64,000 nucleotides of DNA, taken from IMG/VR virus record IMGVR_UViG_3300009419_000009, positions 1 to 64,000 of that record. One strand, written 5' to 3'. The notes below the pieces were generated by a model. It worked only from the letters and a program-made list of their open reading frames with translations. It ran no database searches and was not told where the DNA came from. The position numbers were made by a program, and so were the translations under genes. This document shows, piece after piece, positions 9,335 to 18,744 of the stretch (position 1 is the first letter of the stretch; each line of letters starts with the position of its first letter). Origin of the DNA: an uncultured virus (IMG/VR IMGVR_UViG_3300009419_000009). Its lineage: Duplodnaviria; Heunggongvirae; Uroviricota; Caudoviricetes.

Positions 9335-9424
9335 TGGCGGAAGCGGTGAGATTCGAACTCACGGTGCCTTTCGACACGACAGTTTTCAAGACTGTTGCAA
9401 TAAACCGGACTCTGCCACACTTCC
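9335..9424 (-). tRNA. tRNA-Ser(UGA)
   Basis: Cloverleaf, ACAGT-CTTGAAA-ACTGT, long variable arm, encoded CCA. Confidence 0.95.
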
Positions 9425-9425
9425 A

Positions 9426-10595
9426 TTAGTTGTATAAATCTTGCAGGCGATATATGCCTGTGCGATCTAGATTTTTGTTCACGGCCAAATAGGCCAAGAG
9501 CCCGGCGTCATTGCGACGGACAAGCTCTTTTTGTATACTAGCATCAACGATGGCGTCAATTATATTTTTTTCGTCCAGCTCTAGTGTTAGTTTTAACAGT
9601 TGTATGTCCTTGAACGGCGTGAATGTAATAGTGCGTCCAAGATGCCAGTGCTGGTGATCGTTAATGCACATCCGCAGAATATGCTCCGCAGTTGTTTGTT
9701 TGCTTTGTATTACCTTTTGTATTTGTTCGTCCTGCTGTTGTCTTGCATAGATAGCAGATTTCTCTACACCTTGAAAGTACAGGTAATGATAATGCTCAGG
9801 TTCTAACACCTGTTCCATATTTTTGCCTAGATGCATCAGCATGATATTTGCTGTTGCAGGCCCACGCAAAAAATACTCATCGCCACAGGCCCCAGTGACT
9901 AGAATAGTGGGCTTGCGGTAATGATGTATTTGGTTATAACCCCAGTGTTCACGCAACTGAGATTCAAAATTAATTGTGAACTGATCGTAGTCAGTGTGTT
10001 CAGCCATGATCAATTCATGTGGTATGTGCAGTGCTCGTAGATAACTGATACACAGCAAGGTATCGATGCCACCAGAGTAAAATACCTTGATGTTGTCTGC
10101 GTTTAGACCCAACCACGAAAACTTAGCAGTCAACAAGTTGTGCATTTCATCTACCACTTCAGTAAAACTGCGTGTGGACCCTGGCACAGGAATCACTGTA
10201 CAACGATGTTCATGTATGGTTTGATCAATAGTTACCCAGGCATCTGCCCATACGTTCACAGGATGTTGTACTTCAATGTTGCCAACTGCATGCTCGGCAT
10301 CGTCACGAAACAGTGGTGTTGCTCTACTGGTATCATTGGTAACTGTCACTGTACCGTTTTTATGAGCTAGTACTGCTACAAAGTTACCTTCAAATCTAGG
10401 CTGTGCATTTTCAAACAGTTCTTCTGCCAGCACATGATTGATGCCACGCTGAAAGCAATAGCCCTTGATGTATGCATAACCATACTGGGTGTGTATCTCT
10501 TGCCAACCTAGATCACAATTGAGCCAAAGTTCTTTGGTCAGCGGATACTGCGCAGGGAACTTGGTGTCTTGTGTGGGCTTGATACAAAAGAACAT
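9426..10595 (-). CDS. Asparagine synthase-like N-type ATP pyrophosphatase
   Basis: YSGGIDT PP-loop and TGACGDEYF motif. Confidence 0.7.
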   Translation of the reverse strand: MFFCIKPTQDTKFPAQYPLTKELWLNCDLGWQEIHTQYGYAYIKGYCFQRGINHVLAEELFENAQPRFEGNFVAVLAHKNGTVTVTNDTSRATPLFRDDAEHAVGNIEVQHPVNVWADAWVTIDQTIHEHRCTVIPVPGSTRSFTEVVDEMHNLLTAKFSWLGLNADNIKVFYSGGIDTLLCISYLRALHIPHELIMAEHTDYDQFTINFESQLREHWGYNQIHHYRKPTILVTGACGDEYFLRGPATANIMLMHLGKNMEQVLEPEHYHYLYFQGVEKSAIYARQQQDEQIQKVIQSKQTTAEHILRMCINDHQHWHLGRTITFTPFKDIQLLKLTLELDEKNIIDAIVDASIQKELVRRNDAGLLAYLAVNKNLDRTGIYRLQDLYN

Positions 10596-10954
10596 TACTT
10601 TTGACTGTCGCCTTTTGCTACTCTGTAATTGTCTTCCACAGAGTCCGGTGTGCTGACTTCAATCACTGTGCCTGCTTCGACGCATTCCAGCTGATGAGGT
10701 TTGCAAGGTTCATTGTGCCATACACTACCATCACGCAGTTCTTTTTCGTGCAGTTCAGCAGTGGCAGTGTCAATCCAACGCACAATAAATCGTCCTGATT
10801 GCACATACCATGTTTCTTCTTTGAATTGATGAAAGTGCATACTGAACTTGGCGCCAGTATTAAAGTTCATCATCTTGCCGCAGTACTTGTCATTGGTAGC
10901 CCAGATAAATTCTGAACCCCACCCCTTGGGTACTAATCCTTTTAACTGTGTCAT
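10595..10954 (-). CDS. Cupin (sugar isomerase-like)
   Basis: KGWGSE, SMHFH..KEETWYV..G, H.LE, EVSTPD..EDNYR. Confidence 0.8.
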   Translation of the reverse strand: MTQLKGLVPKGWGSEFIWATNDKYCGKMMNFNTGAKFSMHFHQFKEETWYVQSGRFIVRWIDTATAELHEKELRDGSVWHNEPCKPHQLECVEAGTVIEVSTPDSVEDNYRVAKGDSQK

Positions 10955-11699
10955 CGTATTTCATCCAATCTTGGTGCATACACACCAGTGTGTTGTACAG
11001 TAACGGCGCTGGCACGAATAGCAAATAAAATTGCTTGACTCATGTCACCATCTGTATTTAGATATTCATATGCCAATGCTGCCAAGAATGTATCACCGGC
11101 TCCACACACGTCAGTAACGTCTATTTCAGGCGCCGGATACATGACAAAATTGTGCAAAGCGCCTTCTTTACCCAGCGTTACAATCATGTTTGTGCAATCG
11201 CTGTGTCTTGCCTTGTATTCAACTTCGTTGATCTTTACAATGCAACCTTCAATCTTTTTAGATCCTGCTTTTTGGTGTCAATGAAAATAGGACCCGGAAA
11301 TTCTCTGCGTAGTTCTTCCACCAGCTCATATGTGATCAGGCCTTTGTTGTAGTCGCTGATCACAATGGCATGATACACTTGTGGTATTGCTGTTTCAAAC
11401 ACTAGCGGATCGTTTTTGACATCAGCATCTATTCTAACAATCTGTTGCTTGCTACGACTGTCAATCAATCGTGTCTTGACACTTTGTTGCCCTGTGATAA
11501 AATTTGCATCTAGGCCAAGTGCTTTGAGATTTTCATATACATTGGCCGCCATGCCTGGGCGTTTTTCTTCTGTGGTGGGTGTGAACACAGGAACAGGTGC
11601 TTCTGGACTCATACGATCCACAACACCATATTGATAAACATCTAAACAACTGTCACCTAGTAACAATATGTTGAATTGCTTTTGTACTGGAATACTCAT
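10951..11699 (-). pseudogene. PfkB-family heptose-7-phosphate kinase (HldE domain I-like), split by a 1-nt frameshift near 11251
   Basis: N-part LLGDSCLDVY..G.V.RMSPEAPVP and ISDYNKG; C-part DVCGAGDTF; adding one T restores DLKRFEGCIVKINEVE; may be a sequencing error. Confidence 0.75.
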
Positions 11700-12048
11700 C
11701 GAGTCTTTCAAAAAATTCAATGCGTGGCACATGTTCTTCACCAATGATTGGCCGACCACGATAGTCGCTGCCTTTGACCATGATGTCTGGCTCGCTTGTT
11801 TGGATCAGGTGTTCTAGTTCTTGATCTGTGTCAAAAGTACAAACCTTGTCCACGTACCTTAGAGCTTGCAACATTAGCCTGCGTTCATCTTGATTGAAGA
11901 ACGGACGGCCTGTGCCTTTTAGCTGTCGTACACGACGATCTGTATCTATAGCAACTGTTACCCTGCCAAGACTAGCCGCATACTGCAACAGCATCACATG
12001 CCCCGGATGCAGGATATCAAACGTACCATTGACGAACACTTTAATCAT
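11653..12048 (-). CDS. Cytidylyltransferase-family nucleotidyltransferase (HldE domain II-like)
   Basis: GTFDILHPGH, KG..RP, VKGSDY, YSST motifs; start trimmed to MIKVFVNG because the longer ORF overlaps tRNAs. Confidence 0.88.
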   Translation of the reverse strand: MIKVFVNGTFDILHPGHVMLLQYAASLGRVTVAIDTDRRVRQLKGTGRPFFNQDERRLMLQALRYVDKVCTFDTDQELEHLIQTSEPDIMVKGSDYRGRPIIGEEHVPRIEFFERLDEYSSTKAIQHIVTR

Positions 12049-12054
12049 TGTTAC

Positions 12055-12083
12055 ATTATATATTGTTGCACAAGCTTCGTCAA
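12055..12083 (-). promoter_or_regulatory. Sigma70-type promoter, probably leaderless
   Basis: TTGACG-17-TATAAT, ATG follows after 6 nt. Confidence 0.75.
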
Positions 12084-12091
12084 TAGATATT

Positions 12092-12165
12092 TGGTGCTCA
12101 AGTACAGAATCGAACTGTCGATTGCTCCTTACCATGGAGCCGTTATGCCACTTAACTACAAGAGC
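12092..12165 (-). tRNA. tRNA-Thr(GGU)
   Basis: GCTCC-ATGGTAA-GGAGC, T-loop, CCA. Confidence 0.92.
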
Positions 12166-12166
12166 G

Positions 12167-12243
12167 TGGTACCCCTCCCCCGACTCGAACGGGGAACACA
12201 CTCCTTTTGAGAGAGCCGCGTCTACCAATTGCGCCAGAGGGGT
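12167..12243 (-). tRNA. tRNA-Leu(CAA), short variable loop
   Basis: Loop CTCAAAA, 77 nt, CCA. Confidence 0.85.
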
Positions 12244-12249
12244 ATTGAG

Positions 12250-12325
12250 TGGTGGAAGTGGTGAGACTCGAACTCACGATAAACACCGTATGAAGGTGGC
12301 GCATTAGCCACTATGCTACACTTCC
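12250..12325 (-). tRNA. tRNA-Met(CAU) (elongator; Ile2 not excluded)
   Basis: CACC-TTCATAC-GGTG, CCA. Confidence 0.85.
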
Positions 12326-12330
12326 TGAAA

Positions 12331-12407
12331 TGGCGACCCCGAAAGGATTTGAACCTCTGACATTTGGTTTTGGAGACCAACGTTCTGCCGGACTGAACTA
12401 CGGAGCC
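12331..12407 (-). tRNA. tRNA-Trp(CCA)
   Basis: TTGGT-CTCCAAA-ACCAA, CCA. Confidence 0.95.
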
Positions 12408-12412
12408 ATGTA

Positions 12413-12490
12413 TGGAGCAACGGGTGAGATTTGAACTCACGGTTTTCGGGATTTGCAATCCCGTGCATTGGGCCGCTCTGCCACCGTTGC
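12413..12490 (-). tRNA. tRNA-Cys(GCA)
   Basis: CGGGA-TTGCAAA-TCCCG, U73, CCA. Confidence 0.95.
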
Positions 12491-12494
12491 ATAT

Positions 12495-12568
12495 TGGTTG
12501 CGGGCCCAGGATTTGAACCTGGGATGCTCCTGGCTTATGAGACCGGAGTGGTGGCCGCCCTGCCCGCG
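12495..12568 (-). tRNA. Initiator-like tRNA-Met(CAU) with aberrant D-arm
   Basis: CGCGGGC/GCCCGCA acceptor with C1xA72, loop CTCATAA, canonical T-arm, CCA. Confidence 0.75.
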
Positions 12569-12575
12569 ATAATCT

Positions 12576-12667
12576 TGGCGGAAACGGAGAGATTCGAACT
12601 CTCGGTGCCAATTACTTGACACGACAGGTTAGCAACCTGCTGCCTTAGACCACTCGGCCACGTTTCC
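12576..12667 (-). tRNA. tRNA-Ser(GCU)
   Basis: CAGG-TTGCTAA-CCTG, long variable arm, CCA. Confidence 0.95.
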
Positions 12668-12677
12668 AGTTGTTTGT

Positions 12678-12706
12678 ATTATATAGTGATAGCACATTGC
12701 TGTCAA
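12678..12706 (-). promoter_or_regulatory. Consensus sigma70 promoter internal to tRNA array
   Basis: Perfect TTGACA-17-TATAAT 10 nt upstream of tRNA-Ser(GCU). Confidence 0.88.
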
Positions 12707-12715
12707 TGTTTATTT

Positions 12716-12791
12716 TGGTAGTTCCTAGCGGGCTTGAACCACTGACCTTTACGATGTCAACGTAACGCTCTACCAACTGAGCTAAGGAACT
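12716..12791 (-). tRNA. tRNA-Val(GAC)
   Basis: TTACG-TTGACAT-CGTAA, CCA. Confidence 0.95.
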
Positions 12792-12793
12792 GT

Positions 12794-12868
12794 TGGTACC
12801 GCTAGGAGGAATCGAACCTCCGTCTTAACCTTAGGAGTGTTTTGTTCTATCCACTGAACTATAGCGGT
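12794..12868 (-). tRNA. tRNA-Arg(CCU), weak anticodon stem
   Basis: Loop CTCCTAA, only 3 WC pairs in anticodon stem; good acceptor, D and T arms, CCA. Confidence 0.8.
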
Positions 12869-13074
12869 TTGTTTAGTTTTTTGATATGCTCAATGTGGCG
12901 TTTGAATTCGCGCACATAGTAAGGATCTTTTTCCAGCATCTTGGCTAGATATCCTGCTAGAAAACCTGCATGATACAGCCTGTGCATTCTTTCGTTGCCC
13001 TTGTATTCCACAGGACACACTGACTCTACACTTTGTTGTATAAACTTAACATAGTCTTCGTGTGAGTAGTCCAT
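12859..13074 (-). CDS. Hypothetical 71-aa protein
   Basis: ORF filling a gap between tRNAs; TAAATA 5 nt before ATG; stop lies inside tRNA-Arg(CCU). Confidence 0.65.
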   Translation of the reverse strand: MDYSHEDYVKFIQQSVESVCPVEYKGNERMHRLYHAGFLAGYLAKMLEKDPYYVREFKRHIEHIKKLNKPL

Positions 13075-13085
13075 ACAAATATTTA

Positions 13086-13161
13086 TGGAGCCCCCTGAGG
13101 GATTCGAACCCCCGACTAACTGGTTCGAAGCCAGCTACTCTGTCCACTGAGTTAAAGGGGC
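13086..13161 (-). tRNA. tRNA-Arg(UCG)
   Basis: CTGG-CTTCGAA-CCAG, CCA. Confidence 0.93.
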
Positions 13162-13167
13162 AATGTG

Positions 13168-13243
13168 TGGTGCCAAGGACTGGACTCGAACCAGTAACAC
13201 ACGGATTTTCAATCTGCTGCTCTACCATTGGAGCTACCGAGGC
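13168..13243 (-). tRNA. tRNA-Phe(GAA)
   Basis: Loop TTGAAAA, CCA. Confidence 0.92.
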
Positions 13244-13248
13244 ATGTT

Positions 13249-13323
13249 TGGGGAGAAGTACGGGAATCGAACCCGTGATAGCGGAATCACAACCCGCGGT
13301 TTTGCCACTAAACTAACGACTCC
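13249..13323 (-). tRNA. tRNA-His(GUG)
   Basis: Loop TTGTGAT, G-1:C73, CCA. Confidence 0.92.
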
Positions 13324-13329
13324 ATTGAT

Positions 13330-13403
13330 TGGCACGGGAACTAGGGATCGAACCTAGGACGACAGAGTCAAAGTCTGTTGTGTTACCTCTACACCATTCC
13401 CGA
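13330..13403 (-). tRNA. tRNA-Gln(UUG)
   Basis: ACAGA-CTTTGAC-TCTGT, CCA. Confidence 0.93.
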
Positions 13404-13410
13404 ACAAAAC

Positions 13411-13487
13411 TGGCGCGACCAGCAGGATTCGAACCTACCACCCCAACGTTCGTAGCGTTGTACTCTATCCAAATGAGCTATGGTCGC
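13411..13487 (-). tRNA. tRNA-Arg(ACG)
   Basis: CAACG-CTACGAA-CGTTG, CCA. Confidence 0.95.
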
Positions 13488-13590
13488 ATAATTAGTGCTA
13501 GATTGTTTACTGCACAACCTAGCAAAGCAGGGGTCTGTAGACTGCATACAACTTGTCTCATTGTACTCCGTATGCAAGGGAGAGATTGAA

Positions 13591-13808
13591 TTTGAGAGCC
13601 TACGCCGCGTTTATCGTAGATTTATTCAGGACTTACCGGCCGCCTAGCCTGACCTCGCTCGCGATGGATATCACTTGGGCGCCTGTCCAGTTAGCAACCA
13701 ATCTGCACCGCTCTTCCGAGCAGCCGGGAGTTGAACCCGTCCCCTTTTACTATTTTGGTAGTTCGAACTTACCTAGATAGCGTGACTGCGCTTGCTGACA
13801 CTCTCAAA
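13591..13808 (-). ncRNA. Putative structured ncRNA (~220 nt), family unknown
   Basis: Closed by TTTGAGAG/CTCTCAAA stem; internal T-arm-like CGGG-TTCAACT-CCCG; GC-rich; no convincing ORF. Confidence 0.6.
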
Positions 13809-13811
13809 ACT

Positions 13812-13888
13812 TGGTCGGAGTACAAGGATTCGAACCTTGGACCCCCTGGTCCCAAACCAGGTGCGCTACCAGACTGCGCCACACTCCG
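13812..13888 (-). tRNA. tRNA-Pro(UGG)
   Basis: CCTGG-TTTGGGA-CCAGG, CCA. Confidence 0.95.
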
Positions 13889-13895
13889 AAATTGA

Positions 13896-13969
13896 TGGTG
13901 CCCCGTGACAGAATCGAACTGCCAACTACTGATTACAAAACAGTTGTTATACCACTTAACTAACAGGGC
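13896..13969 (-). tRNA. tRNA-Thr(UGU)
   Basis: Loop TTTGTAA, CCA. Confidence 0.92.
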
Positions 13970-13976
13970 TTGAAAC

Positions 13977-14050
13977 TGGAGCGGGGTAGGAGAATCGAAC
14001 TCCTCGCTTTAGCTTGGAAGGCTAAGGTATTACCACTATACGAACCCCGC
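13977..14050 (-). tRNA. tRNA-Gly(UCC)
   Basis: TTAGC-CTTCCAA-GCTAA, CCA. Confidence 0.95.
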
Positions 14051-14059
14051 AATAAAATC

Positions 14060-14134
14060 TGGTGCATCGTGAGAGGGTCGAACTCCCGACATTCGCCGTG
14101 TAAAGGCGCTACTCTACCACTGAGTTAACGATGC
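14060..14134 (-). tRNA. tRNA-Val(UAC)
   Basis: CGCC-TTTACAC-GGCG, CCA. Confidence 0.95.
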
Positions 14135-14139
14135 AATGT

Positions 14140-14214
14140 TGGTGGAGGATAGCGGGGTCGAACCGCTGACTGAAGCTTGCAAAGCTACTGTGTTCCCAAC
14201 TATACCAATCCCCC
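14140..14214 (-). tRNA. tRNA-Ala(UGC)
   Basis: Loop TTTGCAA, G3:U70, CCA. Confidence 0.92.
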
Positions 14215-14221
14215 ATAACAC

Positions 14222-14297
14222 TGGCTCCACAGGGTGGGCTCGAACCACCGACCAAATGATTAACAGTCATCTACTCTACCAACTGAGCTACTGCGGA
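14222..14297 (-). tRNA. tRNA-Asn(GUU)
   Basis: ATGA-CTGTTAA-TCAT, CCA. Confidence 0.95.
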
Positions 14298-14305
14298 ATA
14301 AAATC

Positions 14306-14381
14306 TGGAGCGGGCGAAGAGGTTCGAACTCTCGACATTTACCTTGGCAAGGTAATGCTCTACCAACTGAGCTACGCCCGC
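14306..14381 (-). tRNA. tRNA-Gly(GCC)
   Basis: TTACC-TTGCCAA-GGTAA, CCA. Confidence 0.95.
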
Positions 14382-14392
14382 ATGTGTTTTAC

Positions 14393-14614
14393 TTATTTGT
14401 CGCGAACTTTCTTCAAATATTCGCGACCTACTTTACCTTGTTCAATTTCTTCAAGCACTTGAATAATAGGACCATTTGTTGATACAACTTTTGATCTATG
14501 TCCAGCTTTGATTTCTCTTAGTCTAGCTGATGCAATCAACACTAGGTCAAATTGATTACCTATCATTTGTGCTGCCTCTTGTGATGTTCTACCAGTGATG
14601 TATTCGTCGGACAT
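14393..14614 (-). CDS. rpoZ: RNA polymerase omega subunit-like protein
   Basis: IGNQFDLVLIASAR.REI..GH and LEEIEQGKVG.EYLKKV match the recalled omega pattern NRF.LVL.A..RAR.L / ALREI..G.(I/V). Confidence 0.8.
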   Translation of the reverse strand: MSDEYITGRTSQEAAQMIGNQFDLVLIASARLREIKAGHRSKVVSTNGPIIQVLEEIEQGKVGREYLKKVRDK

Positions 14615-14667
14615 TAAGTTCCTTTGTTTTATTTACTTAGTATAACACACGATCATGCTAATTGCAA

Positions 14668-14742
14668 TGGTTGCCTATCTTGGGAACGATCCAAGGACCC
14701 CCGCCTTATCAAGACGGTGCTCTACCACTGAGCTAATAGGCA
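14668..14742 (-). tRNA. tRNA-Ile(GAU)
   Basis: Loop TTGATAA, T-loop variant ATCGTTC, CCA. Confidence 0.92.
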
Positions 14743-14747
14743 ATAAT

Positions 14748-14909
14748 ACCATATGGAAACACACTAGTGAGCCAGTCTAACGCAGCCATCGCAACTTTGC
14801 AAGTCGTTTCCAACTTGTGTATCGTCTTTCTGGGCGAGCTGTATGTGTAGAGCTCCGCAAGTTCTCAATGCAATCGCTTGCAAGGACAACTAGTATGTTT
14901 TCATATGGT
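14748..14909 (-). ncRNA. Conserved-stalk hairpin RNA, copy 4
   Basis: ACCATATGAAAACATACTAGT...ACTAGTGTGTTTCCATATGGT terminal stem; begins in the ACCA of tRNA-Lys(UUU). Confidence 0.6.
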
Positions 14910-14981
14910 AGAAGCAGTGGGACTCGAACCCACAACTATCCGGTTAAAAGCCGGGTACTCTAGCCATTGAGTTATGCTTCC
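14906..14981 (-). tRNA. tRNA-Lys(UUU)
   Basis: CCGG-CTTTTAA-CCGG, CCA. Confidence 0.95.
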
Positions 14982-14984
14982 ATA

Positions 14985-15060
14985 TGGTCCCTGCGGTCAG
15001 GCTCGAACTGACGACCAGCGGATTAAGAGTCCGTTGCGCTACCAACTGCGCCACACAGGG
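14985..15060 (-). tRNA. tRNA-Lys(CUU)
   Basis: CGGA-CTCTTAA-TCCG, CCA. Confidence 0.95.
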
Positions 15061-15120
15061 TTGTACGTATTGTTTGATTTTACGTGCCAACCCTAGACCA
15101 TACGGATGCCTAGAGCGACA

Positions 15121-15141
15121 CTAGAGTTTACCTCGTTTCAT
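15121..15141 (-). CDS. Minigene/leader peptide MKRGKL
   Basis: AAGGAG SD (15148-15153) 6 nt before ATG AAA CGA GGT AAA CTC TAG. Confidence 0.6.
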   Translation of the reverse strand: MKRGKL

Positions 15142-15164
15142 GTCAATCTCCTTGATTAAATAAA

Positions 15165-15357
15165 ATGCTCTGCGAACCCCGGTGGTAATTATACCGTATC
15201 AGACCTTTGGAGTCATCACGCACGGCCTCCACCCACTTCCCGACGGGTTCCGTTGTCGCATTGCCAGCGGCCTTTCGGTAGGAAGACTACCACCCTTGGC
15301 TATCACACCACTTCTCATCGTGCGGGTCACACTATCTGCTGATTAGGCAGAACGTTC
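15165..15357 (-). ncRNA. Putative structured ncRNA (~190 nt), family unknown
   Basis: GC-rich non-coding block; long-range CGCACG/CGTGCG and GGTGGTAGT/ATTACCACC complementarity. Confidence 0.55.
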
Positions 15358-15417
15358 TAGCTACAGGACACTTGTGTTGTTTAAGCCTGAGCACGGATGC
15401 AAGGCTCCTCTAAAAAT

Positions 15418-15492
15418 TGGCGGTGCCAAGGGGTAACGATCCCCTTCTTCGAGCGTGACAGGCTCGTGTGCGTCCATGAACACTTTGGCACC
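15418..15492 (-). tRNA. tRNA-Asp(GUC)
   Basis: CGAGC-CTGTCAC-GCTCG, T-loop variant ATCGTTA, CCA. Confidence 0.92.
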
Positions 15493-15498
15493 TAAAAA

Positions 15499-15574
15499 TG
15501 GTACACGGTACGGGAATCGAACCCGTCTTACTAACGTGAAAGGCTAGTGTCCTAAACCGATAGACGAACCGTGC
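15499..15574 (-). tRNA. tRNA-Glu(UUC)
   Basis: CTAGC-CTTTCAC-GTTAG, CCA. Confidence 0.93.
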
Positions 15575-15579
15575 ATAAA

Positions 15580-15664
15580 TGGTGGAGGTGGCTGGACTTG
15601 AACCAACAATGCACAAGGGCGGCGGATTTACAGTCCACTGGGGATACCATTTTCCTACACCTCC
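15580..15664 (-). tRNA. tRNA-Tyr(GUA)
   Basis: GTGGA-CTGTAAA-TCCGC, long variable arm, CCA. Confidence 0.93.
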
Positions 15665-15672
15665 AAATTTTT

Positions 15673-15803
15673 ACCATATAGAAACACACTCGGCTCCCCT
15701 TACAACCTTGTTCCTGTCAATTCAGGATGCACCTGGAATGAACCCAGCGGATCTCCTTGGTTGTTTGTATCTGTCAATTCAGATTGAAAATGTGTTCTTA
15801 TAT
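15673..15803 (-). ncRNA. Conserved-stalk hairpin RNA, copy 3
   Basis: ATATAAGAACACATT...AGTGTGTTTCTATAT; two internal CTG-AATTGA-CAG hairpins. Confidence 0.6.
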
Positions 15804-15806
15804 AAT

Positions 15807-15890
15807 ACCATATAGAAACACACTGGCTGTTGCTTGTCATTGTCTTTAACTACCTCTCGGTGGCGGTAGACCAGTGTGTTTTTATATGGT
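15807..15890 (-). ncRNA. Conserved-stalk hairpin RNA, copy 2
   Basis: ACCATATAAAAACACACTGG...CCAGTGTGTTTCTATATGGT. Confidence 0.6.
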
Positions 15891-16773
15891 GGAGGACTGA
15901 GAATACATCTCTCCCATAAGCACCTCAAGCATTATTGTACACCTTGCGAGCGTACTTTCTCTTGACTTCCACTCGGGTCCTTGCGGATCTCCTAGTCTGC
16001 TTACAGTATCGCCGTTTTTAACGTCAAGCAGTAGACGTGTCATCATATGCTATTCTGCGGATTCCATTCCGTTAGCCTTGCGAGCTATTCAGGTGCGCTA
16101 ACACCTTACGAACCCCCCTCCACAAACTAATGTCACCTTGCGAGCTTCATTAGACTTGATTCACTTGCGTGTCAAGTATTAGATACTTTTCACATATGAC
16201 CGAGGCAGTCTTTGCGTTTTTGTAATGATAGTTGGGATTTGAACCCGACTGCATCCAGCTTAAAAGGCTAGCGTTCAACCATTGAACTTTATCAACCTAC
16301 CGTGATGAGCTACCTCTGTTGCTATATAATCTTTTGGACTACATAATACAACTCACCACATACCTTTCCTCTTGCGGAGTAATCAGTGATGTTTCACGAC
16401 CAGTGTCCTGCTTCAAAACAGTCCACCACCCATTAACATTGCACACGAGCCCTTGGGTGCAACCCCTCGAACCAATATACTACCCTTTCTCATACCTGTT
16501 GACAAGTTGGTTTTGTATGGAAGTCAGCACCACCTGTTACTTTTCATGCACCCTGGTTCCCTTACGGGCCAGTCGATACACATTCTTCCCCATACACTTG
16601 CTTCACAGTTACAACCACCGGTCTTATCAGTGATCGCTACCTTGCGATAGTGAGCAGGCTTGTTTACATGAACCATCTCTGGCGCAGGAGTGTAGGACTC
16701 ATCTGCTTTGGGTAGGTCACCCTACTTATTCTTCGTAGACGGCAAGCCGCCTACAGGACAATAAACTGCCCCG
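15887..16773 (-). ncRNA. GOLLD-like giant structured RNA (~890 nt)
   Basis: No credible ORF; at least 7 CGCAAG tetraloop-type motifs; long-range helices 16763-16773/16201-16211 and GTGGAGG(~16116-16122)/CCTCCAC(3' end); size and phage tRNA-cluster context fit GOLLD; not confirmed by CM search. Confidence 0.7.
16225..16296 (-). other. tRNA-Lys(UUU)-like element embedded in GOLLD-like RNA
   Basis: D-arm GTTC/GAAC, CTAGC-CTTTTAA-GCTGG, T-loop TTCAAAT, short TGATA/TATCA acceptor, no CCA. Confidence 0.7.
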
Positions 16774-16776
16774 AAA

Positions 16777-16903
16777 CTTTATTTGTTCTGCCATCTGCAC
16801 TATATGCCTCGCTCAACAGCTTTACTCGAGTTTACTGTTTATTGCTTTGGTTACATAACGCTTGATCTTGCCTCTGTGCTTACAGAAGGCAGAACAAATA
16901 AAG
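16777..16903 (-). ncRNA. Putative 127-nt RNA closed by a perfect 16-bp stem
   Basis: CTTTATTTGTTCTGCC...GGCAGAACAAATAAAG. Confidence 0.55.
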
Positions 16904-16904
16904 C

Positions 16905-17116
16905 CCATATCAAAACATACTACAGGAACTCCACTTACCTCACAGGACCGTCTCCTGCTACTTCCGTTTCGTCATTACAGTCTAACATACTCCACCGTGT
17001 CATACTTGGGTTTCCCCTCAACTTTCATGTGACTTGCACAGAGCCAGTCCGTCAACTGGTTATCCTCAGTGCAAGCACCTAGTGGTGTTAGCAACCTCTA
17101 ATACATTTAGATATGG
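16905..17116 (-). ncRNA. Conserved-stalk hairpin RNA, copy 1 (divergent)
   Basis: CCATATCTAAATGTATTA...TAGTATGTTTTGATATGG; begins in the CCA of tRNA-Leu(UAG). Confidence 0.5.
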
Positions 17117-17190
17117 TGCCCAAGGAGAGACTCGAACTCTCAAAATTTGGCTTCTAAGACCAACACGTATACCAATTCCGTCACCTGGGC
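17114..17190 (-). tRNA. tRNA-Leu(UAG), short variable loop
   Basis: TTGGT-CTTAGAA-GCCAA, 77 nt, CCA. Confidence 0.88.
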
Positions 17191-17251: not shown

Positions 17252-17280
17252 AGTGTAACTGCAATTTGCATTGCTGTCAA
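17252..17280 (-). promoter_or_regulatory. Sigma70-type promoter (tandem, proximal)
   Basis: TTGACA-17-TACACT. Confidence 0.75.
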
Positions 17281-17353
17281 CTAATTTTTCTACTGTGTTG
17301 CAAAACAACAACAGCACCCTTGTTAGCAACACGATGTTTGCTACAGTTTCACA

Positions 17354-17382
17354 AGTATATGTGATCCTGGCATTGCTGTCAA
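17354..17382 (-). promoter_or_regulatory. Sigma70-type promoter (tandem, distal)
   Basis: TTGACA-17-TATACT. Confidence 0.8.
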
Positions 17383-17477
17383 CTGCTTTTTTAACATGTT
17401 GCAAAAATACTACACTGGTTGTTGACTTTGCAACACTTACAGATTCACAGTCGGTAAGTCATGTTCGTCCAATGTAG

Positions 17478-17541
17478 GTATCAAAGCACTCTTCATGGAT
17501 GAACCCACTTGTCCCCTCGCGGGTAGAGAATGCTTTGATAC
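17478..17541 (-). ncRNA. Small conserved-stalk-like hairpin, copy 0
   Basis: GTATCAAAGCATTCT...AGAGTGCTTTGATAC. Confidence 0.45.
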
Positions 17542-17663
17542 GTTACCATTTTACCATCTGCGTTTCCACCACAGACTTCTCATCCGGTAAGCCGCCCACA
17601 TTAATAGCCGATGTTTTGAGTGCCAGCAGGGTCGCGTTCCCTATACACACTTTTCATGATCCT

Positions 17664-17698
17664 AAAAACAAAAAACCCCAGGGTTTTAAGCCTAGGGT
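17664..17698 (-). terminator. Intrinsic terminator of the putative attenuator
   Basis: ACCCTAGG-loop-CCTGGGGT followed by TTTTTGTTTTT. Confidence 0.85.
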
Positions 17699-17754
17699 CC
17701 TTGGAGTTTGCTGAGTTAATTTGTGTTAACTGTGCGAGTCTCCTGGACCCTTGG
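17691..17754 (-). promoter_or_regulatory. Antiterminator hairpin overlapping the terminator 5' arm
   Basis: AGGGTCC/GGACCCT, GGAG/CTCC and AGTTAA/TTAACT pairings; mutually exclusive with the terminator. Confidence 0.75.
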
Positions 17755-17866
17755 TGCCTGGTAGTGTGCGATCATTACTAATCTCAGTCGCAGACCACAA
17801 GGCCACTGGCATAAATGAATATGCTTGGCTATGCTGTTTGCAGTTGAGAACGAATGTCGGTTTCAT
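17726..17866 (-). CDS. 46-aa leader peptide containing all 20 amino acids
   Basis: MKPTFVLNCKQHSQAYSFMPVALWSATEISNDRTLPGTKGPGDSHS; A-rich leader with AAGGA; promoter upstream. Confidence 0.72.
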   Translation of the reverse strand: MKPTFVLNCKQHSQAYSFMPVALWSATEISNDRTLPGTKGPGDSHS

Positions 17867-17920
17867 TTTGTTTCTTTTTCCTTTGATACTCAGTACATTA
17901 TTGCACTGTGTAAGTCTTGT

Positions 17921-17949
17921 ATTGTAGAGATATTTAGCAATGCTGTCAA
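17921..17949 (-). promoter_or_regulatory. Sigma70-type promoter with TAAATA late motif in spacer
   Basis: TTGACA-gcattgcTAAATAtctc-TACAAT. Confidence 0.82.
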
Positions 17950-17995
17950 CCTCTTATGGTTTATTTAGTCTTTTGTTGTTTTTTCACAATGTATC

Positions 17996-18187: not shown

Positions 18188-18235
18188 TCATAAAGATGAT
18201 ATTCGTAATCGGCCTATGTAGAATGGAGTGTTCAT
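18188..18235 (-). CDS. Leaderless minigene MNTPFYIGRLRISSL
   Basis: ATG 6 nt after the -10 box; ATA x2, TTA x2, CGA x2; tandem TGA TGA stop. Confidence 0.55.
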   Translation of the reverse strand: MNTPFYIGRLRISSL

Positions 18236-18241
18236 GTGTGT

Positions 18242-18270
18242 ACTATAACTTGAATATTTATTTATGTCAA
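18242..18270 (-). promoter_or_regulatory. Sigma70-type promoter with TAAATA in spacer
   Basis: TTGACA-17-TATAGT. Confidence 0.75.
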
Positions 18271-18744
18271 CCGCGATTCTTCAATTTCTAACCAGGTGTG
18301 GTCACCCATGTATTTCACTTGCGTTTGGTATTCGTAGTCTTCGGGTGCAGAGCTTGACCAATCGTTAGGCCCATGGTGTGTCAGTAGAACATGTTGTTTG
18401 CGCTTGTCCCAGACCAACCAGTAAGTCTGGCCCATCACAGGACTGAACTGATATACAGCGGCATGCACTGCATCTGTGACATCTAGTCGTCGTTTGATTG
18501 ACTGTGCTTGTTTTTCCAGTACTGAGACCAGTTCCATGATCCTGTCGTACTCTTGCTGGGCATACATCCTAGCATGGTTGATCATGAGATCTTTTTGCTG
18601 TGTAACGGGCACAAGATCAAACTTGGGTCCACCTGCTTCAGTTGGGTAAGGTGTTACATTACGATTAAAAAACGGAATAATCCCGCCTGTGGTGGTAGAG
18701 TCATAACTGTCTCTGCCCTTGGCTAGGTTTGATTTTTTTTCCAT
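18262..18744 (-). CDS. DUF2452-like protein
   Basis: Coiled coil followed by VH.A.YQF.P..GQTYWL and GP.DW, recalled as DUF2452-like. Confidence 0.55.
   Translation of the reverse strand: MEKKSNLAKGRDSYDSTTTGGIIPFFNRNVTPYPTEAGGPKFDLVPVTQQKDLMINHARMYAQQEYDRIMELVSVLEKQAQSIKRRLDVTDAVHAAVYQFSPVMGQTYWLVWDKRKQHVLLTHHGPNDWSSSAPEDYEYQTQVKYMGDHTWLEIEESRLT

What the first reader, a model, noticed from the sequence alone, without database searches (positions are those of the whole stretch)
17664..17949. All-20-amino-acid, codon-sampling leader peptide with terminator/antiterminator
Seen: promoter TTGACA-17-TACAAT, then a 46-codon ORF containing every amino acid by codon 37 and 40 distinct codons (31 distinct in the first 33). 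My hand estimate for uniform random sense codons is about 32-33 distinct in 46. Codons ~38-46 form the 5' arm of a long hairpin (AGGGTCC/GGACCCT, GGAG/CTCC, AGTTAA/TTAACT) that sequesters the 5' arm of the terminator ACCCTAGG/CCTGGGGT-T-tract. Inference: a ribosome reaching the stop blocks the antiterminator, causing termination; stalling at almost any earlier codon allows read-through toward 28 tRNAs and the ncRNAs. This inverts the classical leader enriched for one amino acid. Caveat: two further promoters lie downstream (17252-17382), so control may be additive or limited to the adjacent RNAs.
Basis: partly seen in the sequence, partly recalled or inferred. Interest (0 to 1): 0.9.

Follow-up and report, generated by a model that had tools for sequence, protein, structure and literature searches.

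The report
All-amino-acid leader gating phage tRNA genes
A giant lake phage places a tiny translated test gene that uses all 20 amino acids, wired to a switchable transcription stop, ahead of its tRNA genes, probably so that it makes more tRNA when ribosomes read any codon slowly.

Summary

- **The element.** Promoter, 46-codon ORF with all 20 amino acids, antiterminator and terminator lie at 17664-17949 (minus strand).
- **Homologues.** They stand in 62 of 64 related phage loci. Of 49 distinct peptides, 35 keep all 20 amino acids, although the peptides evolve almost neutrally. A column shuffle gives 5.2±2.0.
- **The switch.** In all 49, the end of the ORF pairs with the 5' arm of the terminator. 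The arm sequences covary between lineages (median z -4.1, against -0.7 for 67 control terminators).
- **Link to tRNAs.** The module normally heads the tRNA array. Where a leader lacks amino acids, the matching tRNA genes are also missing downstream (12 of 14 cases, P≈2e-9). One clade split the array and carries two complementary leaders.

The likeliest mechanism is a ribosome-mediated attenuator. Smooth translation melts the antiterminator and transcription stops. Stalling lets transcription run into an unnamed structured RNA and the tRNAs. No experiment supports this yet.

The closest known logic is the mycobacterial whiB7 uORF and the classical amino-acid leaders. I found no publication of such control for tRNA genes. 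Earlier notes of this scan report the same kind of element in other phages.

The parts
17921..17949 (-). Sigma-70-type promoter TTGACA-17-TACAAT of the leader transcript. The spacer carries a CTAAATA motif that recurs in the homologous promoters.
   Evidence: 11 of 12 consensus positions. Homologous promoters are listed. RNA contigs of two studies both end at 17906, close to the predicted start near 17914 (a weak hint).
17867..17914 (-). Predicted 5' UTR of about 47 nt, A-rich, with AAGGA 14-18 nt before the ATG. Many homologues have no UTR and are leaderless.
   Evidence: The start site is inferred from the promoter position; the ATG lies within 4 nt of the predicted start (offset -4 to +4) in 19 of 62 loci (17 of 49 distinct leaders).
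17726..17866 (-). Leader ORF of 46 codons plus TAA, with all 20 amino acids and 40 distinct codons.
   Evidence: The ORF is conserved with in-frame indels in homologues.
17688..17759 (-). Antiterminator hairpin. The 5' arm AGGGTCC (17751-17745) lies in codons 39-41, and the stop codon lies in the apical part. The 3' arm GGACCCT (17700-17694) overlaps the terminator's 5' arm.
   Evidence: -30.0 kcal/mol for the segment, z=-3.7. The same architecture occurs in all 49 distinct homologues, with arm sequences that covary between lineages.
17664..17702 (-). Intrinsic terminator: ACCCTAGG / CCTGGGGT stem followed by TTTTTTGTTTTT.
   Evidence: It is conserved in 62 of 64 loci, 20-37 nt after the stop codon.
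17415..17655 (-). Conserved structured RNA (called DS-RNA here) directly behind the terminator. It is the first product of read-through.
   Evidence: Alignments (6 of 10 predicted pairs show compensatory changes). Its conserved block occurs in 63 viral contigs. No Rfam family matches it.
17252..17382 (-). Two further consensus promoters between the DS-RNA and tRNA-Leu(TAG).
   Evidence: Such promoters are absent in 9 of 15 related genomes.
9335..17190 (-). Downstream targets: tRNA-Leu(TAG), GOLLD RNA (about 15897-17095) and 28 further tRNA genes, covering all 20 amino acids.
   Evidence: RNA contigs cover 15931-17095.
18188..18270 (-). A separate small unit. A promoter and a leaderless 15-codon mini-ORF MNTPFYIGRLRISSL (ATA x2, TTA x2, CGA x2) stand directly before tRNA-Leu(TAA) and tRNA-Ile(TAT). 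The big leader avoids these codons.
   Evidence: The core ATA CGA TTA CGA ATA CGA is conserved in 11 of 18 relatives that carry tRNA-Leu(TAA).

Best explanation
The element is a ribosome-mediated transcription attenuator that reports how smoothly ribosomes decode a sample of all codon kinds. It gates transcription into a structured RNA and the phage's tRNA array.

**Proposed sequence of events (inferred):**
1. Host RNA polymerase starts at the TTGACA/TACAAT promoter.
2. A ribosome translates the 46-codon leader.
3. If decoding is fast, the ribosome reaches the last ten codons and the stop codon while the polymerase is still transcribing the next ~50 nt.
4. The ribosome then occupies the 5' arm and apex of the long hairpin. 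The segment GGACCCTAGG is left free to pair with CCTGGGGT.
5. The terminator forms and transcription ends at the T-tract.
6. If the ribosome is absent, or stalls at any codon before about codon 33 for lack of a charged tRNA, the long hairpin forms first and sequesters the terminator's 5' arm.
7. The polymerase then runs on into the structured RNA and, in most relatives directly, into the tRNA genes.

The result would be a demand-controlled tRNA supply. This would be useful when host tRNAs decay or are cleaved during infection.

**Shown here:** the parts; their conservation and covariation; selection for amino-acid content rather than peptide sequence; and the match between leader content and downstream tRNA genes.

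**Inferred:** translation of the ORF, the direction of switching, and the physiological trigger.
For: **1. The ORF is kept.** 62 of 64 loci have an ATG ORF of 34-89 codons ending 20-37 nt before a hairpin and T-tract. In 19 of 62 loci the ATG sits at the predicted transcription start.

**2. Content is selected, not sequence.**
- 35 of 49 distinct peptides have all 20 amino acids, 6 have 19, and 8 have 18 or fewer.
- P(all 20 | 45 aa) is 0.0025 with phage proteome composition, 0.019 with the pooled leader composition, and 0.088 even for a uniform composition.
- A column shuffle of the alignment gives 5.2±2.0 all-20 sequences (maximum 13 in 2000 shuffles) against 35 observed.
- Close pairs differ by 33 synonymous and 95 non-synonymous codons, spread 71/58/77 over codon positions 1, 2 and 3. 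This is near-neutral.
- All-20 is nevertheless retained in 24 of 25 directed same-length pairs, against 12.8 expected.

**3. The switch is conserved.**
- In 49 of 49 distinct loci, part of the terminator's 5' arm pairs with the ORF's 3' end (4-10 of its 7-14 nt).
- Antiterminator segment energy is -22 to -40 kcal/mol, against -10 to -21 for the terminator.
- Arms covary between lineages: AGGGTCC/GGACCCT, CCGGGGTTC/GAACCCCGG, GGCTTCCTT/AAGGAAGCC, GTGGGGTGT/ACACCCCG.
- Median z is -4.08, with z<-2 in 45 of 49 leaders. For 67 other terminator-like sites the median is -0.72, with z<-2 in 9 of 67.
- The terminator is in the minimum-energy fold in 15 of 49 loci without a ribosome, 31 of 49 with a ribosome at the stop, and 13 of 49 with a mid-ORF stall.

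**4. Link to tRNA genes.**
- 55 of 63 loci have a same-strand tRNA within 736 nt or less behind the structured RNA.
- Of 26 distinct leaders with at least 8 kb of downstream sequence, 18 have all 20 amino acids. Ten of those 18 have tRNAs for all 20 within 10 kb.
- None of the 8 incomplete leaders has a complete downstream tRNA set.
- 12 of 14 amino-acid kinds missing from leaders also lack a downstream tRNA gene, across 7 lineages. The expected overlap is 2.95 (P=2.4e-9; P=3.1e-7 for the 5 lineages with at least 10 kb).
- The cleanest case is L196: the leader lacks only Trp, and its 30 downstream tRNAs lack only Trp.
- In the complete genome G002 the leader lacks Trp. tRNA-Trp lies 142 kb away behind its own promoter.

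**5. The split array.**
- In the 36-codon clade the leader lacks D, H, R, V and Y. It sits inside the array, downstream of the Glu, Tyr, Asp, Arg and His tRNA genes.
- A second leaderless ORF with its own terminator stands in front of those tRNAs: MNKQNAQLSFEIPSHDLHDYAREALAYTNSGWSGT. It contains E, H, D, Y and R.

**6. Codon level.**
- Leaders of the window's clade use ATA in 0 of 11 Ile codons, TTA in 1 of 33 Leu codons, and AGA in 0 of 19 Arg codons. The tRNAs reading these codons lie upstream.
- Across all leaders the figures are 38 of 124, 39 of 161 and 29 of 104.
- A separate mini-ORF made of ATA, TTA and CGA precedes the Leu(TAA) and Ile(TAT) tRNAs.

**7. Precedent.** In the whiB7 uORF, efficient translation gives termination. 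Removing the single Trp codon abolishes the response to Trp starvation (passages of bioRxiv 10.1101/2023.06.02.543512).
Against: - **No experiment.** There are no raw-read RNA ends. The RNA evidence is assembled contigs only. They cannot show starts, ends or levels, and may contain DNA.
- **Downstream promoters.** In this window two consensus promoters lie between the attenuator and the tRNAs. Six of 15 genomes have at least one such site. The contribution of read-through to tRNA output may be small here.
- **Geometry in this window.** A simple mask of -15 to +14 nt around the stop codon does not bring the terminator into the minimum-energy fold. It fails in 18 of 49 loci overall. The model needs the assumption that a helix cannot close across a bound ribosome.
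- **Late amino acids.** Several kinds, mostly D, E, V and G (Gly in this window), first appear inside or next to the antiterminator arm. A stall there should favour termination.
- **The match is one-directional.**
  - Eight of 18 all-20 leaders have incomplete tRNA sets within 10 kb. L184, for example, lacks F, K, P, Q and T.
  - The 36-codon leaders lack R and V although Arg(TCG) and Val tRNAs lie downstream.
- **Rarity bias.** Rare amino acids are a priori likelier to be missing both from short peptides and from phage tRNA sets. The hypergeometric P values are therefore too optimistic.
- **Codon decodability is not distinctive.** Downstream tRNAs can decode 43 of 46 leader codons, against a share of 0.89 in long ORFs.
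- **Codon bias.** The extra codon diversity could simply reflect weak codon bias in a short ORF.
- **Sequence-level constraints.** Some sequence motifs are conserved (W, SNDR, TPE). Within the window's clade a ~60-nt core is invariant even at third codon positions. Constraints therefore exist beyond amino-acid content.
Confidence: 0.72

Rival explanations
1. It is a general translation-speed or coupling timer rather than a per-amino-acid sensor. The diverse ORF only averages over the tRNA pool. The element reports overall ribosome performance (antibiotics, ribosome damage, global starvation), as proposed for whiB7. It mainly gates the adjacent structured RNA, and in other lineages a ~52-aa protein, rather than the tRNAs.
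For: - The same terminator and antiterminator geometry applies.
- The structured RNA is always the first downstream product.
- About half of the lineages insert a small protein gene behind the terminator.
- Promoters lie behind the structured RNA in the window and in 5 other genomes of the 15 examined.
- All-20 leaders persist where the tRNA set within 10 kb is incomplete (8 of 18).
Against: - A timer has no need for completeness.
- It does not predict the loss of exactly those kinds whose tRNA genes are not downstream (12 of 14).
- It does not predict the two complementary leaders of the split array.
- It does not predict avoidance of ATA, TTA and AGA where their tRNAs are controlled separately.
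Confidence: 0.15
2. It is an ordinary small protein gene with its own promoter and terminator. The peptide itself is the functional product, and the hairpin only stabilises the 3' end of the mRNA.
For: - The ORF is conserved in 62 of 64 loci.
- Some residues recur (M1, P, W, N, R; motif SNDRTPE).
- One leader variant is called as a 'hypothetical protein' in public annotations.
Against: - Close pairs show 33 synonymous against 95 non-synonymous codon differences, with no third-position excess.
- W, C, H, K and V sit in different alignment columns in different lineages, while each peptide keeps at least one of each.
- No Pfam or PHROG family matches.
- The terminator's 5' arm is always complementary to the ORF's end, unlike at control terminators.
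- Leader content tracks the downstream tRNA genes.
Confidence: 0.06
3. It is a non-coding small RNA of about 250 nt that runs from the promoter to the terminator. The open frame is incidental to a conserved RNA structure.
For: - The transcript folds far better than shuffles (z=-5.3).
- A ~60-nt core is invariant at the nucleotide level in the window's clade. A scan that let third codon positions vary found only the same 9 contigs.
Against: - The frame stays open in all lineages despite indels, which come in multiples of three.
- ORF length varies from 34 to 61 codons in most leaders (two have 73 and 89), yet the stop codon always lies in the hairpin.
- The ATG coincides with the predicted transcription start in 19 of 62 loci.
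- An RNA-only constraint cannot explain amino-acid completeness or its match to the tRNA genes.
Confidence: 0.04

Closest known systems
whiB7 uORF attenuator of mycobacteria (passages of bioRxiv 10.1101/2023.06.02.543512 read; the model is credited there to its reference 22, which I did not read)
   Same: - A long, compositionally diverse upstream ORF.
- Efficient translation leads to a rho-independent terminator; impaired translation leads to an antiterminator and read-through.
[quoted passage not shown]
- Which starvations induce read-through depends on which amino acids the uORF contains.
   Different: - Host and target differ. whiB7 is an actinobacterial transcription factor; this is a phage RNA and tRNA array.
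- There is no sequence relationship.
- Here completeness is itself conserved (35 of 49) and tracks the downstream tRNA repertoire.
- Many versions here are leaderless.
- whiB7 uORFs are Ala-biased, and M. tuberculosis lacks several amino acids.
Classical leader-peptide attenuators of amino-acid operons (trpL, hisL, leuL, thrL, pheL; multivalent ilv leaders). Recalled from general knowledge, and mentioned and in the listings.
   Same: Short ORF, alternative antiterminator and terminator hairpins, an intrinsic terminator before the regulated genes, and a stall at regulatory codons that gives read-through.
   Different: - Those leaders are enriched in one to three amino acids and control biosynthetic enzymes.
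- They have a four-segment design in which absence of translation gives termination.
- Here the leader samples all amino acids and controls RNA genes.
- The structure is a three-segment design in which absence of translation should give read-through.
T-box riboswitches (recalled)
   Same: They control transcription read-through in response to tRNA charging.
   Different: - T-boxes bind one uncharged tRNA directly, without translation.
- No T-box or any other Rfam family matches here.
Leader-ORF attenuators before phage tRNA genes noted earlier in this scan (e1-5802700, e1-5525145, e1-5886956, e1-5943215, e1-5355203, e1-5926040, e1-2978539, e1-5990122, e1-5874610). These are AI notes, mostly unchecked.
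   Same: Same idea: a small translated ORF and terminator ahead of phage tRNA blocks, written in the amino acids or codons of those tRNAs. Two of the notes describe all-20 versions.
   Different: - They concern other phages (T4-like, rumen jumbo, Flavobacterium-type).
- No sequence similarity to this leader was reported, except for e1-5874610, which concerns the neighbouring mini-ORF.
- One note found that completeness was not kept among relatives. Here it is kept.

Membership tests
Ribosome-mediated (leader-peptide) transcription attenuators | A short translatable ORF in the 5' part of the transcript, upstream of the regulated genes | tested here: met
   A 46-codon ATG ORF lies at 17866-17726. 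It is conserved in 62 of 64 loci, and its ATG sits at the predicted start in 19 of 62. Translation itself was not shown.
Ribosome-mediated (leader-peptide) transcription attenuators | An intrinsic terminator between the ORF and the regulated genes | tested here: met
   (17702-17671 plus T-tract). In homologues a hairpin and T-run lie 20-37 nt after the stop codon.
Ribosome-mediated (leader-peptide) transcription attenuators | An antiterminator that is mutually exclusive with the terminator and overlaps the ORF, so that ribosome position decides between the two | tested here: met
   (49 of 49 loci, with arms that covary between lineages). (z<-2 in 45 of 49 leaders, against 9 of 67 controls). 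(terminator in the minimum-energy fold: 15 of 49 without a ribosome, 31 of 49 with a ribosome at the stop).
Ribosome-mediated (leader-peptide) transcription attenuators | Regulatory codons correspond to the product of the regulated genes | tested here: met
   Met in a generalised form. The leader's amino-acid kinds track the downstream tRNA genes (12 of 14 missing kinds match). The split array has complementary leaders. Exceptions are listed in the Against line.
Ribosome-mediated (leader-peptide) transcription attenuators | An anti-antiterminator or pause hairpin (segments 1:2) that synchronises polymerase and ribosome | tested here: inconclusive
   A small conserved hairpin (GATTA GTAA TGATC, codons 29-33) and a long intra-ORF hairpin appear in the folds. 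No segment that competes with the antiterminator's 5' arm was identified.
Ribosome-mediated (leader-peptide) transcription attenuators | Read-through depends on translation and on starvation | not testable with these tools
   Only assembled metatranscriptome contigs are available. One bridges the terminator (17551-17906) and one ends at it (17682-17906).
whiB7-type uORF attenuator | It controls the whiB7 transcription factor of Actinobacteria, with a homologous uORF and leader | tested here: not met
   The element lies in a phage genome and is followed by RNA genes. It works like the whiB7 uORF but is not a member.
T-box riboswitch or any other Rfam cis-regulator | A match to the family's covariance model | tested here: not met
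   No match up to E=1 in 17400-17950, and none in 12 homologous loci up to E=0.5.
GOLLD RNA | The element lies within the GOLLD covariance-model match or transcript | tested here: not met
   The GOLLD match is at 15894-16359 (198 bits). The RNA contig spans 15931-17095. It is separated from the leader by a tRNA gene and two promoters. Only 3 of 10 related records searched have a GOLLD match.

The most novel reading that the evidence does not exclude
Large phages run a demand-controlled tRNA supply. Their tRNA arrays are divided into units, and each unit sits behind a tiny test ORF written in the amino acids, and partly the codons, of the tRNAs it gates. The all-20 leader is the master version for a whole array. 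A shortage of any charged tRNA would switch on exactly the tRNA block that cures it. Such a shortage could come from decay of host tRNAs after the host genome is degraded, or from host anticodon nucleases used as anti-phage defence. Leaders and arrays co-evolve: amino acids drop out of the leader when their tRNA genes move out of its reach.
Probability: 0.55. Interest if true: 0.92.

Novelty: new variant of a known kind. Interest (0 to 1): 0.88.

Why it matters
- **tRNA gene regulation.** tRNA genes are usually thought of as constitutive or growth-rate controlled. A leader peptide that measures decoding of every amino acid and feeds back on tRNA transcription would be a new regulatory logic for RNA genes.
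- **Phage tRNA arrays.** It would give a concrete, testable answer to an open question: why large phages carry near-complete tRNA sets and how they deploy them.
- **An unusual evolutionary signature.** Selection here acts on the presence of residues rather than their position. The peptide sequence evolves almost neutrally, yet the set of 20 amino acids is kept. That signature could be used to search for similar sensors elsewhere.
- **A compact natural part.** The element is about 290 nt. It could serve as a reporter of general translation stress.
- **Directly testable.** Omitting one amino acid, or removing its codon, gives a clear prediction in cell-free systems or in laboratory bacteria.

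Tried and rejected
- **Cultured phage relatives.** Searches of the GenBank phage collection found nothing. I tried DNA in near and distant modes and the 444-aa neighbour protein, so no cultured relative or annotation could be used.
- **Peptide alignment search.** The search for related loci with the peptide alignment was not possible because there is no conserved stretch of 7-10 columns. I used DNA patterns instead.
- **Rfam.** Nothing matches the leader or the structured RNA.
- **Pfam and PHROGs.** Nothing matches the leader peptide or the ~52-aa neighbour. Three of four leader peptides are not in the 15-billion-protein collection.
- **Amino-acid completeness in the window alone.** This is not convincing: 5 of 154 small ORFs have all 20.
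- **Codon decodability.** The share of leader codons that the downstream tRNAs can decode is no different from ordinary genes (43 of 46, against 0.89).
- **More leaders in G002.** I looked for further leaders before the remote tRNA clusters of G002. There are none; those clusters have plain promoters.
- **Ribosome-mask folding.** A simple ribosome mask at the stop codon does not bring the terminator into the minimum-energy fold in the window or in 17 other loci. I keep the model only under the steric argument that a helix cannot close across a bound ribosome.
- **Metatranscriptome runs.** All four runs laid were assembled contigs. They show that the region occurs in RNA libraries of several studies. 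They cannot show ends, strand, level or termination efficiency.
- **Leader as part of GOLLD.** Rejected on position, and because GOLLD was found in only 3 of 10 related records searched.
- **Alternative genetic code for the window.** There is no suppressor tRNA among its 33 tRNAs.
- **Not run.** Structure prediction, complex prediction and the large protein searches were not used, because the peptide shows no sign of being a folded protein.
Full report
**1. What is at the coordinates**

The window belongs to a 121-kb fragment of an uncultured virus, estimated 35% complete. Complete relatives measure 330-365 kb. All of the following lies on the minus strand.
- The scan finds TTGACA-17-TACAAT at 17949-17921.
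- It also finds a terminator at 17702-17671 followed by TTTTTTGTTTTT.
- One search lists the ATG ORF at 17866-17726, 46 aa, MKPTFVLNCKQHSQAYSFMPVALWSATEISNDRTLPGTKGPGDSHS.
- The peptide contains all 20 amino acids (complete at codon 37) and 40 distinct codons.
- The long hairpin forms as described: AGGGTCC/GGACCCT, GGAG/CTCC, AGTTAA/TTAACT. Its 3' arm shares GGACCCT with the terminator's 5' arm.

**2. Surroundings**

The minus strand carries 33 tRNA genes and a GOLLD RNA. The Rfam match is at 15894-16359, 198 bits. Metatranscriptome contigs cover 15931-17095.

Directly behind the terminator, at about 17655-17415, lies a strongly conserved structured RNA, here called DS-RNA. It has compensatory base changes and matches no Rfam family. 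Then come two more consensus promoters, tRNA-Leu(TAG), GOLLD and the rest of the array.

Four tRNAs lie upstream of the leader: Met, Arg-TCT, Leu-TAA and Ile-TAT.

**3. Is the window's ORF special by itself?**

Only partly.
- Of 154 six-frame ATG ORFs of 36-61 aa in the window, 5 have all 20 amino acids.
- Codon diversity does stand out. 40 distinct codons compares with 28.9±2.3 for draws from the phage's codon usage, and with 32.8±2.0 given the peptide (P=0.0004).

**4. Homologues**

The GenBank phage collection holds nothing similar.
- A neighbouring 160-aa gene has 537 relatives in IMG/VR, of which 80 were fetched. A few of these carry the leader.
- Exact and third-position-degenerate scans for the leader's core each found the same 9 contigs.
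- A pattern for the conserved block of the DS-RNA found 63 contigs (fetched again with 10-kb flanks).

I used a purely positional definition of a leader: an ATG ORF of at least 30 codons whose stop lies 10-50 nt before a hairpin and T-run, within 650 nt upstream of the DS-RNA. By this definition 62 of 64 loci, window included, have a leader. My terminator script found nothing in the other two, L122 and L135.

Among the 49 distinct peptides (34-89 aa):
- 35 have all 20 amino acids.
- 6 have 19.
- 8 have 18 or fewer.
- At 60% identity they form 19 clusters. 14 are all-20 throughout, one is mixed, and four are incomplete.

The chance of all 20 in 45 residues:
- 0.0025 with the phage's proteome composition;
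- 0.019 with the pooled composition of the leaders themselves;
- 0.088 even for a perfectly uniform composition.

**5. What is being selected**

The peptides diverge strongly. Compare MTLRNCKPSLHLQPTLGGLAYWSMFANTVINSDRESGGLS (40 aa, all 20) with MKNITCQSIAHTIASLQMPVAAFEGKNIPSIRWSYNDTSLRRGFIAGVSYT (51 aa, all 20).

Single-copy residues such as W, C, H, K and V sit in different alignment columns in different lineages. One example is a reciprocal K/E exchange between two related leaders.
- Shuffling residues within alignment columns leaves 5.2±2.0 complete sequences (maximum 13 in 2000 shuffles), against 35 observed. This control does not preserve relatedness.
- Eighteen close same-length pairs differ by 33 synonymous and 95 non-synonymous codons, spread 71/58/77 over the three codon positions. 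This is close to neutral.
- Random amino-acid-changing mutations in the observed numbers would preserve completeness in 12.8 of 25 directed pairs. It is preserved in 24 (the pairs are not independent).

The frame stays open through indels that come in threes. The pattern is that of an ORF whose content matters but whose product does not.

In 19 of 62 loci the ATG lies within 4 nt of the predicted transcription start (offset -4 to +4), which makes those mRNAs leaderless. The window's version has a ~47-nt A-rich UTR.

**6. The switch**

In all 49 distinct loci, part of the terminator's 5' arm pairs with the last 1-14 codons of the ORF (4-10 of its 7-14 nt). The stop codon lies inside the hairpin.
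- The arm sequences differ between lineages but stay complementary: AGGGTCC/GGACCCT, GAGGGTCTC/GAGACCCT, CCGGGGTTC/GAACCCCGG, GGCTTCCTT/AAGGAAGCC, GTGGGGTGT/ACACCCCG.
- Against shuffles of the upstream part, the median z is -4.08. z is below -2 in 45 of 49 leaders.
- For 67 other terminator-like sites in the window and five related loci, the median z is -0.72 and z is below -2 in 9 of 67.
- The bare fact that a terminator arm finds partners upstream is not discriminating. It holds at 39 of the 67 control sites.

Folding with constraints:

| Ribosome position | Terminator in minimum-energy fold |
|---|---|
| None | 15 of 49 |
| At the stop codon | 31 of 49 |
| Stalled mid-ORF | 13 of 49 |

In the window itself the mask does not suffice, because the 5' arm lies just behind the ribosome's trailing edge. 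The model then rests on the steric argument that a helix cannot close around a bound ribosome.

Most amino-acid kinds (17-20 in all-20 leaders) occur before the point where a stalled ribosome would already cover the arm. The late kinds are mainly D, E, V and G; in the window the late one is Gly.

**7. The link to tRNA genes**

- 55 of 63 loci have a same-strand tRNA within 736 nt or less behind the DS-RNA. Three of the other eight have truncated flanks.
- In 9 of 15 genomes no consensus promoter lies between the DS-RNA and the first tRNA.
- Among the 26 distinct leaders with at least 8 kb of downstream sequence (17 of them with no same-strand tRNA in up to 10 kb upstream), only one of the tRNA genes found lies on the opposite strand.
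- Of the 18 all-20 leaders in that set, 10 have tRNAs for all 20 amino acids within 10 kb. None of the 8 incomplete leaders does.

Leader content against downstream tRNA genes:

| Lineage | Kinds missing from leader | Kinds with no downstream tRNA | Note |
|---|---|---|---|
| L196 | W | W | 30 downstream tRNAs |
| G002 (complete genome) | W | W, G, V | tRNA-Trp lies 142 kb away behind its own promoter |
| L218 | K, T | A, I, K, N, T | |
| L226 | K | F, K, M, V, Y | |
| L217 | V | ten kinds, V among them | |
| L233 | C, H | C, H, V | |
| 36-codon clade | D, (E), H, R, V, Y | D, E, H, Y | |

In total, 12 of 14 missing kinds match, against 2.95 expected (P=2.4e-9). For the five lineages with at least 10 kb, 9 match against 2.15 expected (P=3.1e-7). 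The null treats all amino acids as equally likely to be missing, so these P values are optimistic.

In the 36-codon clade the leader sits inside the array, downstream of the Glu, Tyr, Asp, Arg(ACG) and His tRNAs. Those tRNAs are preceded by a second leaderless ORF with its own antiterminator-like pairing and terminator. Its peptide is MNKQNAQLSFEIPSHDLHDYAREALAYTNSGWSGT and variants, and it supplies E, H, D, Y and R.

Counter-examples:
- Eight all-20 leaders have incomplete tRNA sets nearby. L184, for example, lacks F, K, P, Q and T.
- Arg(TCG) and Val tRNAs lie downstream of leaders that lack R and V.

**8. Codon level**

In the window's clade the tRNAs reading AGA, TTA and ATA lie upstream of the leader.
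- Its ten distinct leaders use ATA in 0 of 11 Ile codons, TTA in 1 of 33 Leu codons, and AGA in 0 of 19 Arg codons.
- All leaders together use them in 38 of 124, 39 of 161 and 29 of 104. These counts are not phylogenetically independent.

Those upstream tRNAs have their own device. A promoter (18270-18242) drives a leaderless 15-codon ORF at 18235-18188, MNTPFYIGRLRISSL, with ATA x2, TTA x2 and CGA x2. It ends 8 nt before tRNA-Leu(TAA). Its core ATA CGA TTA CGA ATA CGA is conserved in 11 of 18 relatives that carry that tRNA.

**9. Expression**

All four metatranscriptome runs laid were assemblies. Contigs of two studies end at 17906, near the predicted start. One contig spans 17551-17906 and so crosses the terminator. 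Another ends at 17682. These are hints only.

**10. Mechanism and rivals**

The best-supported reading is a ribosome-mediated attenuator. Completed translation frees the terminator's 5' arm. An absent or stalled ribosome lets the antiterminator form, and transcription runs into the DS-RNA and the tRNAs. The direction is inferred from three things:
- the geometry;
- the logic that shortage should raise supply;
- the experimentally studied whiB7 uORF.

Rivals are scored in the rival section. They are a general coupling timer, a functional small peptide and a non-coding RNA. The tRNA match and the near-neutral peptide evolution argue against them.

**11. Relation to what is known**

The passages of bioRxiv 10.1101/2023.06.02.543512 that I read describe the whiB7 uORF:
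- Efficient translation gives termination, and stress gives antitermination.
- The M. smegmatis uORF encodes every amino acid but Cys.
- A Trp-less variant loses the Trp response.

Broad sensing by a diverse leader is therefore known. New here:
- the phage setting;
- RNA and tRNA genes as targets;
- conservation of completeness;
- co-variation of leader content with the tRNA repertoire;
- split and codon-specific versions.

Six full-text searches found no description of leader-peptide control of phage tRNA genes. For all papers except the one above, I saw listings and the starts of abstracts only.

Earlier AI notes of this scan report the same kind of element in other phages. They agree with my reading but are not independent evidence.

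**12. Open points**

- The function of the DS-RNA.
- The reason for the nucleotide-invariant ~60-nt core in the window's clade.
- The conserved TAAATA motif in the promoter spacers.
- How much the attenuator contributes where internal promoters exist.
- The true ribosome footprint geometry.

Noticed in passing
window 17415-17655 (-); L100-L162 around the pattern match: A conserved ~240-nt structured RNA lies directly behind the attenuator in 63 viral contigs. It has several covarying helices, including a hairpin with an AACG(C/A)G loop, CTGTGGCG-AAACGCAG, and CTTACC/GGTAAC. By eye, a pseudoknot is possible (AGTG...CACT crossing GCCC...GGGC). It has no Rfam match. In some lineages its 3' conserved block doubles as a promoter.
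   Followed up: partly
window 18188-18270 (-): A promoter and a leaderless 15-codon mini-ORF MNTPFYIGRLRISSL (ATA x2, TTA x2, CGA x2) end in a hairpin 8 nt before tRNA-Leu(TAA) and tRNA-Ile(TAT). The core ATA CGA TTA CGA ATA CGA is conserved in 11 of 18 relatives. No T-tract follows the hairpin.
   Followed up: partly
window 15897-17095 (-): Abundant metatranscriptome contigs show a GOLLD RNA of about 1.0-1.2 kb that starts right after tRNA-Leu(TAG). A strain variant replaces 133 nt (16772-16904) with 10 other letters. A tRNA-like element is embedded at 16223-16296. GOLLD is found in only 3 of 10 related records searched.
   Followed up: partly
L105, L111, L114, L117, L118, L120 and others, between leader terminator and DS-RNA: About half of the lineages carry a ~48-62-aa ORF with the conserved motif ..EQ..KLI..K.ERAK.. 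between the attenuator and the structured RNA. It has no Pfam or PHROG match and is absent from the window.
   Followed up: no
L168:2511-2981, L169:2003-2388: The 36-codon clade encodes phage tmRNA genes (tags ANDEQFALAA and ANDELFALAA) between tRNA clusters.
   Followed up: no
L168:4545-4623, L174:1926-1999; leader of L104/L188: tRNAs with a CTA anticodon (amber-suppressor-like, labelled Pyl by ARAGORN) occur in two related genomes. The leader of one of these genomes ends in TAG. Stop-codon reassignment late in infection would extend that ORF through the terminator.
   Followed up: no
window about 17765-17824 (-): Within the window's clade, about 60 nt in the middle of the ORF (AYSFMPVALWSAT..ISNDRT) are invariant even at third codon positions, apart from two synonymous sites. 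The flanks differ by 30% or more. In the fold this part forms a long intra-ORF hairpin. A pause or timing element is possible, but the invariance is unexplained.
   Followed up: partly
leader promoters, e.g. window 17921-17949 (-); one search list: The 17-nt spacer of the leader promoters carries a conserved (G)A(C)TAAATAA motif across distant lineages. The other tRNA promoters of the window lack it. It could be a regulator site.
   Followed up: no
window 18262-18744 (-): A 160-aa DUF2452 protein gene sits between two tRNA clusters. It has 537 relatives in IMG/VR and made a handy marker for this phage group.
   Followed up: no
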